From Macrostomum hystrix (taxonomy: Eukaryota; Animalia; Platyhelminthes), in the NCBI GenBank assembly GCA_950097015.1, contig CATNEN010000038.1, positions 4,464,001 to 4,528,000 on the forward strand: a stretch of 64,000 bases of DNA. Direction: 5' to 3'. The notes under the pieces are model-generated. The model was not told the origin of the DNA. It made no database searches and saw only the letters and a list, made by a program, of their open reading frames with translations. The position numbers and the translations under genes are program-made. This document shows, piece after piece, positions 49,901-52,425 of this stretch. The first letter of the stretch is position 1, and each line of letters opens with the position of its first letter.

Positions 49901-52425
49901 CATTCTGCGCCAGAAAGACCTGCAGGCAAAGGAAGCCATGCACAATGGACACTGAAATTGGTAGGGTGGGTTTCAAAGAAATGGAAATTATTGAGAGTTG
50001 CTGTAGATGTGCGTGCTTTATAAGATTATTTACAATTGTGAGCGTGTTGAACTCGTAACTAATAGTTGTAGATATTATTGAACAAACAGTTTTGGATGTA
50101 ATCAAGCTTGACAGGTGTGAATGCTGCTATAAACAATCAGTTTTATAATGTACTATAACTATAATGTAATCTTAGCTGCCTAAACACAAAGGATTTAGGA
50201 TTTTAAGGATTTCAAAATCTTAAAAATACCAATTTAACGCGCACAATCAGACTGAAACTAATCTACTAGTGCGAGAGGTTTTGATCAAACTTTAATTTCT
50301 GGCGTGAATTCGTCAATCATTATTTCTTATTAGTACAGTAAATGAATTCACCGATATTAATTTAAGAAGAGATTATGCTAATAGGACCTCCAAAAACACA
50401 GACCAACGCAGAGAACACAATGTGTCAACGTTAATAACATAATTTTATATAATAATATTAGCAGAAAAACGTTCGTGAATTCAAAAAAGCTGTGGAAAGT
50501 AAACTATAATAAACTTGTACTAATGCATATAGATAAAAGATACTCCTAACATACTACTAACTGTTAATTCGCAGAGGTTTTAAAAGTGCCAAATTTTAGA
50601 AGGGAGAAAGAAAAAACATCTATGACGGTAAAAATGTTGTTTTTATAAATGAAATTTTAGAAAAATTTGTCTAATCCGTCGAATTAGGTCCGCTATTTGG
50701 TTTTAACTTAAGAAAATCAGGTACATTAAAAGCTGGCTGTTTGAGTTCGCATCGCAGACAAGCAACCTGCTGATTGGCTGGCCCAGGCTAGCAGTTGTAG
50801 GCGTCCATGCTGATTGGCTGGCCCAGGCTAGCAGTTGTAGGCGGCCATGCTGATATCCGGCCTGTGGTAGCTGCGTTCTCCGGTGCCAATTGCGGACACG
50901 TCTCGCCTGGACAGGTCGATTTGCTGTTGCTTAGCAACCAGGCAGGCGAACTCGCGATATTCCAATGCACGCGCCGCGTCAGCCGCCTCAATGCGCTTAC
51001 TTTTAGTAGTATAGTCGTGGTTTGTATTGCTTTTACTTTTTCCGCCGTGCGAAGTAGTTGCGGCTGCTGCGATGCTCGACGGAGCCAAAAACGGCGGCTC
51101 GTCACCCGGCGGCTGAAGATCGGCGGCGGCCATGCGGCGCAGCCGGCGCCGGTACTGATGGCAGGAGTAGGACAGCCGGCACACAGGAACCAGCACTAGG
51201 GAGGCCAGAGCGGCAACCAGTAGGTAGTGATGCCACTCCAGCTGGTCGGCGCCGACGCGGCCGATGAACAGCTTCATCAGAGCCAGGCTGGTGCTGATGG
51301 ACAGCGGCACGAAGATCGCAACCAAGGCAGCGTCGATCGCCAGGCTTCGGCGGACGCTTTTTATGCTGAAGAATCTGCGAGCTCGACTTCTCGGTGGCGA
51401 CGCTTGATATTCGTTGCCAACGGCACCAGGCCGGATGGTCCGCACACTGAGATTGCTGAGGCGGCTCTTGTGTCCCCTCTGCTGCTGCTGCTGCTGCTGC
51501 TGTTGCTGCCGCCGATCGCCGTTGCACACGGCTGACAATGGCAGAATGGCTGAGAGAGACAGGCGCGGCGGCTGCATGCCATCGGCATCGGGTGTACTTT
51601 TCCAGCAGCCGCCGGGTGCGCCTGGTGGCAACAAGAGATTGTTGCTGTTGGCGCCTCCGCAGCTGGACGCTGTTGCCATGCAGCCTGCCGAACTGGCACA
51701 CACCGGCTGTGGCTGCGGCTGCAGCGGCTTCTGATTGTTCCGGCTAGTATTGCAGTTGTTTGAGCTACAGTTGGCAGACATCTTTTGAGCACAACAAAAA
51801 CGTTTCTAAGAGTGCCAGTTCAATGCTCGGTTGGCCGGTCGTGGCAGTCGGGTTTCTAGTTGTGCTGTTGTTGATTTTATTTGATTAACACTTGCCTCGT
51901 TGATCAATCAGAGAGGCAGGTAAGAATTAGGAGGGGTGAGTGGACATCAACGTGACGTAACTTGGCGTCGCACCCCGGACCACTTGACAGGCGAAGTGGA
52001 CATGATGAGTCAGCAAAATATTAGGCTAGCGAGTACATGAGATTCGTGTACATCTCATGAGTGTACATGAGAGGTCGAAAGTTTTGCTTAAAATACTTTG
52101 CAACAAGAAATCTCGAGCTAACGTGAGTACTGGCCATTCACATCATTTTACTTTACTACTATACTGGCTAAGTTAATTGAGTCGAGACATGCTTCTAGTC
52201 AATTTTACGCTGTTTTCAGAGCGTCAGGAATTTCGGATACTTACATGGCTTTCTCTTGTCAATAGGCAGTGTCATCTTGCAAGTCGATGGACTTCCTTCC
52301 AGCGCGTACACATAAGTGTGCAGCTCTTTGTCAAACACCTTTCTGATGGAGGAGCCAGAAATCTTCCAATTTTCAGCTGGACCCCGTCCCTGACCAGAGA
52401 ACAGCTCATAATACTGTGACCCGCT
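40965..52425 (-). CDS. CFAP20DC: CFAP20 domain-containing protein (C3orf67 orthologue); start exon unresolved
   Basis: Exons 52425-52245, 49951-49879, 49735-49624, 49491-48794, 48704-48368, 47953-47825 and 41351-40965 total 1917 nt in phase. The N-terminal CFA20 domain shows ELFSGQG..W..KVFDKE..LEG, FLCLQV..FSFEL.VTD.GNNRRRL.FST, WTNLAIDL and ANCRLCRV. The C-terminus has the family signature DLLYDPSLNCYFDPKTYKYYEL. Confidence 0.9.
41358..47745. repeat. 6.4-kb 11-mer satellite GATTCA(G/T)TT(G/T)(G/A) filling the last CFAP20DC intron, with a 2067-bp higher-order duplication
   Basis: About 580 monomers of roughly five variants. Rare variants recur exactly 2067 bp apart, and the ORF track shows matching ORFs at 42371/44438, 43119/45186 and 44207/46274. 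Confidence 0.97.
48051..48237. repeat. 24-bp intronic minisatellite, ~7.5 copies
   Basis: Unit GATTCCATCTGAAGCTACTGCTGC, within CFAP20DC intron 47954-48367. Confidence 0.95.
50828..51781 (-). CDS. Intronless two-TM protein nested in a CFAP20DC intron on the same strand; MARCH2/3-like TM region without RING-CH
   Basis: A 317-codon GC-rich ORF with ATG and poly-Q lies wholly inside intron 49952-52244. It has two hydrophobic helices, AALVAIFVPLSISTSLALM and YLLVAALASLVLVPVC. A 40-bp tandem duplication covers the stop codon (50769-50854). Confidence 0.72.
   Translation of the reverse strand: MSANCSSNNCNTSRNNQKPLQPQPQPVCASSAGCMATASSCGGANSNNLLLPPGAPGGCWKSTPDADGMQPPRLSLSAILPLSAVCNGDRRQQQQQQQQQQRGHKSRLSNLSVRTIRPGAVGNEYQASPPRSRARRFFSIKSVRRSLAIDAALVAIFVPLSISTSLALMKLFIGRVGADQLEWHHYLLVAALASLVLVPVCRLSYSCHQYRRRLRRMAAADLQPPGDEPPFLAPSSIAAAATTSHGGKSKSNTNHDYTTKSKRIEAADAARALEYREFACLVAKQQQIDLSRRDVSAIGTGERSYHRPDISMAAYNC
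51950..52012. promoter_or_regulatory. Candidate internal promoter of the nested gene (CRE-like and AP-1 sites)
   Basis: TGACGTAA (51953) and TGAGTCA (52006) lie 170-230 bp upstream of ATG 51781. Confidence 0.35.

What the first reader, a model, noticed from the sequence alone, without database searches (positions are those of the whole stretch)
50828..51781. Same-strand nested gene encoding a RING-less MARCH2/3-like membrane protein
Seen: an intact intronless 317-aa ORF lies inside a CFAP20DC intron on the same strand, with CRE/AP-1-like sites upstream. Splicing from the upstream CFAP20DC exon into the two nearest AGs gives early stops, so it does not look like an alternative exon. Known, from memory of MARCH2: KRTLCCDMVCFLFITPL..QLE..[TM2]..YHCQLY..R. 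The ORF has RRSLAIDAALVAIFVPL..QLE..[TM2]..YSCHQYRRR with the same D-x8-PL spacing, but low-complexity poly-Q sequence replaces the C4HC3 RING-CH. Inference: a retrogene-like, catalytically dead MARCH derivative that could act as a decoy or dominant-negative adaptor for membrane-protein ubiquitination. Same-strand nesting is much rarer than antisense nesting and implies competition with host splicing and polyadenylation.
Basis: partly seen in the sequence, partly recalled or inferred. Interest (0 to 1): 0.7.

Follow-up and report, generated by a model that had tools for sequence, protein, structure and literature searches.

The report
Ovary-biased membrane gene inside cilia gene
In a Macrostomum flatworm, a real single-exon gene for a predicted two-pass membrane protein sits on the same strand inside the first intron of the cilia-related gene CFAP20DC; its counterpart in a sister species is active mainly in adults and the ovary region, while the proposed descent from MARCH ubiquitin ligases is only weakly supported.

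Summary
The ORF is real (317 aa, minus strand). It lies wholly inside a 2,293-nt GT-AG intron of CFAP20DC, an intron shown by spliced contigs from two studies. Separate contigs cover the ORF and not the intron upstream of it. Its only relative among 1.84 billion representatives is Macrostomum lignano Mlig015262.g3 (66% identical; 83% in the membrane hairpin), also RING-less. Published tables class that gene as ovary-region and 11-fold adult-biased, while the host is flat, and its ID prefix is shared with a trans-spliced CFAP20DC form, so the linkage is probably conserved. The MARCH2/3 link is weak: 3-7 bits against 71-123 for true members, HHalign probability 9-19%, only TM1 aligns; MARCH1/8 could not be tested. 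No parent gene or retroposition mark was found. CRE/AP-1 sites occur at chance frequency. The decoy role is untested. Extra findings: the host receives a spliced leader whose AUG is in frame; and M. lignano IDs and lengths hint that read-through from the nested promoter is trans-spliced at host exon 2, an accidental operon (about 30%). The scan noted same-strand nested intronless genes in three other genomes, none of this family. Verdict: real lineage-restricted reproductive gene, modest interest.

The parts
50828..51781 (-). Nested intronless ORF, 317 aa, predicted two-pass membrane protein without RING
   Evidence: orthologue P0001 66% identical; contigs cover it
51782..51860 (-). 5' untranslated stretch covered by contigs, contiguous with the ORF, no spliced leader seen, includes an in-frame stop upstream of the ATG
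   Evidence: X3 record 51518-51860 and X4 record 51645-51836, 0 differences
51269..51340 (-). Predicted TM1 (about aa 148-171), with the D-x8-PL pattern
   Evidence: hydropathy; helix in AlphaFold2 model, mean pLDDT 78
51164..51229 (-). Predicted TM2 (about aa 185-206), followed by a basic run that suggests a cytosolic C-tail
   Evidence: positive-inside rule (established knowledge)
50831..51049 (-). Conserved C-terminal block (aa 245-317; 58 of 73 residues identical), predicted long helix at low confidence
51512..51631 (-). Conserved N-terminal block (aa 51-90; 28 of 40 identical) inside low-complexity sequence; not a RING
50279..50827 (-). Likely 3' UTR; contig pieces at 50678-50843, 50517-50731 and 50279-50492, not joined; poly(A) site unknown, no AATAAA downstream of the stop
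50768..50847 (.). Tandem duplication of 40 bp that includes the stop codon (98% identical copies)
   Evidence: also seen as a 70-nt contig
49952..52244 (-). First cis-intron of CFAP20DC, 2,293 nt, GT..AG
   Evidence: joint in X1, X3, X4, X6
52245..52425 (-). CFAP20DC exon 1 (181 nt), joined at its 5' end to the Macrostomum spliced leader, whose final ATG is in frame
   Evidence: loose end at 52426 in X3 and X6 matches the last 25 nt of the published leader (PMC8629364); Pfam
49879..49951 (-). CFAP20DC exon 2; its acceptor TTTCAG fits the published trans-splice motif [T/C]TNCAG
49624..49735 (-). CFAP20DC exon 3
48794..49491 (-). CFAP20DC exon 4 (end of the CFA20 domain, then low complexity)
51953..52012 (.). 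CRE-like and AP-1-like sites in the probable promoter region; at chance frequency window-wide

Best explanation
This is a conserved single-exon gene inside the first intron of CFAP20DC that is likely transcribed from its own intronic promoter mainly in the adult ovary and is predicted to encode a non-catalytic two-pass membrane adaptor with both tails in the cytosol. Shown: the intron, the ORF, RNA-derived contigs over it, block-wise conservation with M. lignano, absence of a RING. Taken from published tables for the orthologue: ovary-region class and 11-fold adult bias while the host is flat. Inferred: own promoter near 51860-52010; the two genes share the DNA because they are mostly used in different cells, so the host's intron is spliced out whole elsewhere; the protein anchors partners to an oocyte or egg-granule membrane through its three conserved blocks. 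Whether its hairpin descends from a MARCH ligase is open (about 30%).
For: Intron joint in runs of two studies. Contigs cover 51860 to 50678 in pieces with 0-1 differences in X3-X6, and none covers 51861-52244 or 52427-53900, which argues against DNA or unspliced pre-mRNA (all four runs are one study). Orthologue P0001, 191 of 288 aligned residues identical; identity 83% in aa 132-221, 79% in 245-317, 70% in 51-90, against 26-39% in the three linkers. Mlig015262.g3 is class 'Ovary 1', Mlig015262.g8 and Mlig004673.g2 (CFAP20DC forms) are 'Non-Specific' (PMC7336406 supplement). Adult versus hatchling log2 fold change 3.52, adjusted p 7.7e-22 for g3, against 0.10 and 0.03 (not significant) for the host forms (PMC10092323 supplement). 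g8 is annotated C3orf67 (PMC7806878 supplement) and a shared prefix means transcription units clustered on one strand at 95% (PMC5730564). AlphaFold2 gives a helical hairpin, mean pLDDT 78.
Against: Contigs give no strand, start, end or level, and the runs are not on record as RNA (they hold spliced joints and the leader, so they are read as cDNA). Expression classes belong to the orthologue in another species; the positional data are unreplicated and the region also holds gut and other tissue, though 6 of 8 ovary-region candidates tested by in situ hybridisation were ovarian. The M. lignano locus itself was not seen. The adaptor role has no direct evidence; no family or fold match.
Confidence: 0.7

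Rival explanations
1. The gene is a fast-evolving MARCH paralogue that lost its RING-CH and acts as a decoy or dominant-negative partner of active MARCH ligases or their substrates.
For: HHalign places TM1 on MARCH2/3 TM1 with the invariant Asp and the Pro-Leu; 2 of 150 segment shuffles and 0 of 100 full shuffles reach the score, 37 of 1000 in the HMMER version. Three viral RING-CH ligases are among the top 50 Foldseek hits in BFVD for the 189-aa model (ranks 8, 10, 38). Architecture matches: two TMs, short loop, basic run after TM2. Recalled, untested: the MARCH1/8 subgroup has L-E-W before TM2 and C-x2-Y after it, with what I recall as the same 24-residue W-to-C spacing as here (W183, C207, Y210). 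MARCH1 dimerises through its TMs (PMC6669941 passage).
Against: Profile scores 2.6-6.6 bits against 71-123 for 7 of 7 left-out members; a random window frame scored higher, 8.8 bits. HHalign probability 8.9% and 19.2%, global mode 0.9%; TM2 does not align. Invariant Thr and Cys of TM1 (27 of 27) are absent and the TM2-end Trp, Arg, His pattern (26, 25, 23 of 27) has no counterpart in the local alignments. No MARCH hit at E up to 0.001 among 1.84 billion representatives; no usable hit among Pfam-named ESM Atlas clusters. BFVD E-values are 0.26-0.75, and with the better hairpin model only 1 of 50 is a RING-CH ligase (rank 16, E 0.9). The family was chosen after seeing the sequence, so p near 0.02-0.04 is slight. 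Nothing bears on decoy function.
Confidence: 0.12
2. The ORF is an alternative exon of CFAP20DC: either spliced in frame onto host exon 1 through an internal AG, or spliced from an internal donor onto host exon 2, giving a membrane-anchored CFAP20DC chimera.
For: In-frame AGs exist inside the ORF, one with a pyrimidine tract. A GTAAG at 51000 is in the same phase as host exon 1, so a splice from it to exon 2 would keep the host frame (781 nt, phase 1). Two unchecked scan notes describe nested genes that borrow a host first exon.
Against: No such joint in any of six runs; contigs read straight through 51549 and 51000. Protein blocks upstream of the AG and downstream of the donor are conserved in M. 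lignano, as is the start context K-M-S-A. Expression of g3 and the host differ. Contigs drop rare forms, so a minor isoform is not excluded.
Confidence: 0.06
3. The gene is a retrocopy of a spliced parent that landed in the intron.
For: It is intronless, GC-rich (0.61) in AT-rich intron DNA (0.42 and 0.31), and gonad-biased like many retrogenes (established knowledge).
Against: No parent found. No poly(A) tract of 6 or more A and no flanking repeat over 9 bp, though old copies lose these. GC and GC3 match the host and the neighbour gene. Mean exon length is 788-858 nt in two Macrostomum assemblies (PMC10468722 table), so a 951-nt exon is ordinary. DNA-level insertion or de novo origin fit as well. 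The genome could not be searched.
Confidence: 0.12

Closest known systems
Macrostomum lignano Mlig015262.g3 (PAA77750.1, hypothetical protein, 325 aa)
   Same: Orthologue: 66% identity over 288 residues, same end, same hairpin, no RING; shares its ID prefix with a CFAP20DC form.
   Different: Ten extra N-terminal residues, Asn-rich instead of Gln-rich N-terminus; its exact position in the host was not seen. No main text mentions it.
MARCH2/3 subgroup of membrane-associated RING-CH E3 ligases (and MARCH1/8, viral K3/K5/M153R-type)
   Same: Two TMs with a short loop and cytosolic tails; D-x8-PL in TM1; weak Foldseek neighbours among viral RING-CH ligases.
   Different: No RING-CH; profile scores at noise level; invariant TM1 Thr and Cys missing; TM2 does not align to MARCH2/3. 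MARCH1/8 not tested.
Intron-nested protein-coding genes (host/nested pairs; Montibus et al. 2024, PMC11694760)
   Same: Nested in a long first intron, tissue-restricted, expression unlinked to the host.
   Different: Here the host is SL trans-spliced, so read-through from the nested promoter can meet an unpaired acceptor.
Macrostomum operons that start with a non-trans-spliced gene (Ustyantsev and Berezikov 2021, PMC8629364)
   Same: [quoted passage not shown]
   Different: The downstream unit would be a truncated host, not a separate gene; no leader at host exon 2 was seen in our contigs.

Membership tests
MARCH (RING-CH) E3 ligases | C4HC3 RING-CH domain N-terminal to the TMs (PMC6669941, PMC11049619 passages) | tested here: not met
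   No RING in Pfam for either orthologue; only C59 and C86 of the N-terminal cysteines are shared; in-frame stop upstream lies inside a contig
MARCH (RING-CH) E3 ligases | Two or more TM segments with cytosolic tails | tested here: met
   Predicted only: hydropathy and AlphaFold2 hairpin
MARCH2/3 subgroup | Significant profile similarity of the TM hairpin | tested here: inconclusive
   2.6-6.6 bits against 71-123 for members; shuffles p about 0.02-0.04; HHalign 9-19%
MARCH2/3 subgroup | Invariant TM1 residues D, T, C (27 of 27 in the fetched set) and P (25 of 27) | tested here: not met
   D150 and P159 are kept; Val158 stands for Thr and Leu168 for Cys (and the sequence)
MARCH1/8 subgroup | Profile similarity of the TM hairpin | not testable with these tools
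   No MARCH1/8 TM sequence could be fetched; resemblance is recalled only
MARCH (RING-CH) E3 ligases | E2 binding and ubiquitin ligase activity | not testable with these tools
   Predicted absent because the RING is absent
Nested genes | Whole gene inside one host intron | tested here: met
   Joint 52245-49951
Nested genes | Own transcript, independent of the host | tested here: met
   Separate contigs; orthologue regulated apart from the host; start site itself not mapped
Retrogenes | Intron-bearing parent gene elsewhere | tested here: inconclusive
   None in protein searches; genome not held
Retrogenes | Poly(A) remnant or target-site duplication | tested here: not met
   such marks decay, so this is weak
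SL-resolved operons | Spliced leader added at the downstream unit's acceptor | tested here: inconclusive
   Not seen at 49951 in four runs; hinted by M. lignano annotation

The most novel reading that the evidence does not exclude
A same-strand nested gene has turned its host into an accidental operon: in the ovary, transcripts from the intronic promoter run on through CFAP20DC exons 2-n, and the now unpaired exon-2 acceptor receives the spliced leader, yielding the membrane-protein mRNA plus a truncated CFAP20DC mRNA whose leader AUG opens only 26 codons and whose first in-frame Met is residue 112. Support: in M. lignano the prefix Mlig015262 holds just two listed genes, g3 (the nested gene) and g8 (trans-spliced, 3,189 nt, only 49.3 bits to C3orf67, no Pfam domain); the full form (3,342 nt, 135 bits) has another prefix, as expected if it differs by a 181-nt first exon (3161/3342 = 0.946, under the 0.95 cut); g8 clusters by expression with the full form, not with g3. 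The first cistron may in addition be a RING-less MARCH descendant.
Probability: 0.3. Interest if true: 0.62.

Novelty: new member of a known kind. Interest (0 to 1): 0.38.

Why it matters
As it stands it adds an uncharacterised, so far Macrostomum-only, ovary-region membrane protein that can be tested at once by RNAi and in situ hybridisation in M. lignano, a model for reproduction-gene evolution. If the operon reading holds, it shows one way operons can arise in trans-splicing animals: a promoter inside an intron creates an unpaired acceptor that the leader machinery resolves, which would also limit the harm of read-through into the host. If MARCH ancestry holds, it would be a natural RING-less MARCH; searches for such a protein in print found nothing relevant, but these were narrow.

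Tried and rejected
No genome is held for the window, so paralogues, a parent gene and synteny could not be searched. No holder of the stretch is on record as RNA. Pfam: only sub-threshold MASE1 and Hemotin. PDB sequence search with A1: best E 0.11. Foldseek against PDB: no match at E up to 0.001; VIA-align: generic helical hairpins, best Z 8.9. ESM Atlas: three unnamed clusters at 0.75-0.76, below chance level; nothing among named clusters. Attempts to obtain MARCH1/8 TM sequences failed: motif scans of viral contigs (0 hits; 2 chance hits), of prokaryote genomes (1 chance hit), protein searches (3 hits; 13 hits, MARCH2/3-like or unnamed), text search. CRE and AP-1 sites rejected as evidence. 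No Rfam family in 49900-56300. No leader seen on the nested contigs or at host exon 2; contigs drop rare forms, so this is not absence. Supplements without the gene ID: PMC5816591 (1 file held), PMC8662610, PMC10786194; the g3 row was not found in PMC7806878, whose table may be held only in part. PMC1657053 proved irrelevant. dN/dS could not be computed: no M. lignano DNA. No complex prediction was run: only stand-in MARCH proteins from other animals were on hand.
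Full report
Observation. The 317-aa ORF is at 51781..50828 on the minus strand. An in-frame stop lies 8 codons upstream. One of 2000 base shuffles gave an equally long open frame in any of six frames, and a codon score trained on the host and the neighbouring gene is positive only in the annotated frame. The flanking exons belong to a CFA20-domain gene: two of three pieces pass the Pfam cut-off. 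Public contigs join 52245 to 49951 across 2,293 nt with GT..AG ends (X1, X3, X4; X3, X4, X6; two studies), so the ORF is intronic and on the host strand.

Transcription. In X3-X6 (one study) contig pieces cover 51860-50678 with 0-1 differences, broken at the CAG repeat the tool skips, plus a piece at 50279-50492; nothing covers 51861-52244 or 52427-53900. X1 and X2 (second study) hold pieces too. The runs are not on record as RNA, but they contain splice joints and the spliced leader. Contigs give no strand, start or end. The piece 51518-51860 runs through the upstream stop and both nearby AGs with no loose end, so these molecules neither receive a RING exon nor a leader there. The host does receive the leader: the loose end at 52426 in X3 and X6 is the last 25 nt of the published M. 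lignano leader (PMC8629364, parts 1-2 of 4 read), and its final ATG opens the host frame, the next in-frame Met being residue 52. That flatworm leaders can supply the start codon is known (recalled). A genomic in-frame ATG also lies 18 nt upstream of the acceptor.

Relatives. A word search of aa 120-235 found 1 protein among 696 candidates, and an HMMER search of 1.84 billion representatives with the two-sequence profile found only that same protein: M. lignano Mlig015262.g3, 325 aa, 191 of 288 aligned residues identical. Identity is block-wise: 75 of 90 in the membrane region, 58 of 73 in the C-terminal block, 28 of 40 in an N-terminal block, against 13 of 50, 16 of 41 and 7 of 23 in the linkers, the pattern of purifying selection (inference; dN/dS not computed). 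The orthologue has no RING and no poly-Q run. The window is therefore from a Macrostomum species other than M. lignano (inference).

Published expression of the orthologue. No main text names the gene. Supplement rows: Mlig015262.g3 is class 'Ovary 1' (641 transcripts), Mlig015262.g8 and Mlig004673.g2 are 'Non-Specific' (PMC7336406; passages); g3 is up in adults over hatchlings, log2 fold change 3.52, adjusted p 7.7e-22, g8 and g2 are unchanged (PMC10092323; passages); g8 and g2 are both trans-spliced C3orf67 (CFAP20DC) forms (PMC7806878, one row). The positional data are unreplicated; 6 of 8 ovary-region candidates tested gave ovarian in situ signal and 2 gave none (PMC4490696 passages). A shared prefix marks transcription units clustered on the same strand at 95% identity and then cut into genes at leader and poly(A) sites (PMC5730564 section 31; described for assembly v1, the tables use v3). 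So nested gene and host are linked on one strand in M. lignano too (inference; locus not seen).

MARCH test. A motif scan fetched 90 metagenome loci. I kept 18 that hold a MARCH2/3-type hairpin in one frame, judged by eye, and dropped 72 (MARCH6-type, partial or intron-broken); 9 of the 13 proteins were added. The 18-sequence profile gave the ORF 2.6 bits and the orthologue 6.0 among 741 segments, below a random window frame at 8.8. The 27-sequence profile gave 2.8 and 6.6 bits, while 7 of 7 left-out members scored 71-123; three RING-bearing proteins with divergent TMs scored 10.8, 7.1 and -0.2, so a low score does not exclude another subgroup; 37 of 1000 segment shuffles reached the TM-region score. 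HHalign aligned only TM1 (probability 8.9%; 19.2% on trimmed profiles, 2 of 150 segment shuffles and 0 of 100 full shuffles reaching it, 0.9% in global mode). D150 and P159 match conserved columns, but the Thr and Cys invariant in 27 of 27 are missing. AlphaFold2 gave a helical hairpin (mean pLDDT 56.8 for aa 129-317; 78.0 for aa 128-228). From memory, TM2 looks more like MARCH1/8 (L-E-W, a Cys 24 residues on, then C-x2-Y) than MARCH2/3, but no such sequence could be fetched. By the family definition (RING-CH plus TMs; PMC6669941 and PMC11049619 passages) it is not a member; ancestry I put at about 0.3.

CRE-like and AP-1-like sites are at chance frequency, although they lie 90-150 nt upstream of the furthest contig end. 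No retroposition mark was found and exons of this length are average in the genus (PMC10468722 passages). A mammalian survey reports only a slight bias to opposite orientation, counting non-coding nested genes (PMC11694760 passages); a stronger bias for protein-coding pairs is recalled, not checked. The two nearest AGs give early stops, but in-frame AGs exist further in, and a GTAAG at 51000 is in phase with host exon 2; contigs use neither.

How it most likely works. An intronic promoter fires mainly in adult ovarian cells and makes a single-exon mRNA of about 1.2-1.6 kb ending in the AT-rich 3' part of the intron (inferred). The product is a two-pass membrane protein with a short outer loop and cytosolic tails carrying conserved blocks, without a catalytic domain, most simply an anchor or adaptor on oocyte or egg-granule membranes (inferred, untested). 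The host is made broadly from an upstream promoter, trans-spliced at 52426, and removes the nested gene with intron 1 (shown).

Most novel reading. The listed genes under prefix Mlig015262 are only g3 and g8. g8 is trans-spliced, 153 nt shorter than the full form, scores 49.3 against 135 bits to human C3orf67, lacks the Pfam hit, and shares an expression cluster with the full form and not with g3. A unit made of the nested gene plus host exons 2-n would share 3161 of 3342 nt (0.946) with the full form if exon 1 is 181 nt as here, just under the clustering cut. The exon-2 acceptor fits the published trans-splice motif, as do exons 1 and 3; an unpaired acceptor is said to suffice for trans-splicing. 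This would be an operon made by nesting. Against: 153 is not 181, the gene models were not seen, other isoform structures could explain g8, a donor-like site inside the ORF could pair with the acceptor in cis, and the only loose letters at 49951 in our contigs are those of exon 1. One search for this idea in print found nothing relevant. Probability 0.3.

Earlier scan notes: nothing by sequence or place; three unchecked notes on same-strand nested intronless genes in other genomes, two of them sharing the host's first exon, which this gene does not appear to do.

Verdict. Observation confirmed; interpretation partly supported. A real, lineage-restricted, probably ovarian nested gene; new member of a known kind; interest 0.38.

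Noticed in passing
window 52426-52425 (-): CFAP20DC is SL trans-spliced and the leader's terminal ATG is in frame with exon 1; next in-frame Met is residue 52.
   Followed up: yes
window 50995-51000 (-): GTAAG donor-like site inside the nested ORF, in phase with host exon 2; would give a membrane-anchored CFAP20DC chimera; contigs read through it.
   Followed up: partly
window 50926-50938 and 50768-50847: A perfect X-box-like palindrome inside the ORF (2 matches in the window with up to one mismatch, 0.68 expected) and two CCAAT boxes in the 40-bp duplication, about 0.8-1 kb upstream of host exon 2; could be chance or an internal element of a ciliary gene (motif names recalled).
   Followed up: partly
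window 53982-54261: MITE-like element with 14-bp perfect terminal inverted repeats, very deep and variable contig cover, upstream of the host's trans-splice site.
   Followed up: partly
window 56221-60821 (+): Gene with weak LisH and HEAT hits, resembling RELCH (name recalled), divergent from CFAP20DC; likely shared promoter region between 52.5 and 56 kb.
   Followed up: no
window about 41500-47740: Roughly 6-kb satellite of 10-bp units with strong strand skew, downstream of host exon 6, apparently inside a host intron.
   Followed up: no
window 51917-51925 (+): Good splice-donor-like CAG/GTAAGA on the plus strand just upstream of the nested gene; no contig covers it.
   Followed up: partly
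window 15135-16415 (-): 426-aa ORF that looks like a retroelement RNase H domain (by eye, recalled motif).
   Followed up: no
window 31649-31951 and 36517-36819 (-): Two near-identical 100-aa ORFs 4.9 kb apart, a probable local duplication.
   Followed up: no
window 9007-9540 and 10475-10978 (+): Two ORFs that resemble halves of an alpha-1,3-fucosyltransferase (by eye, recalled).
   Followed up: no
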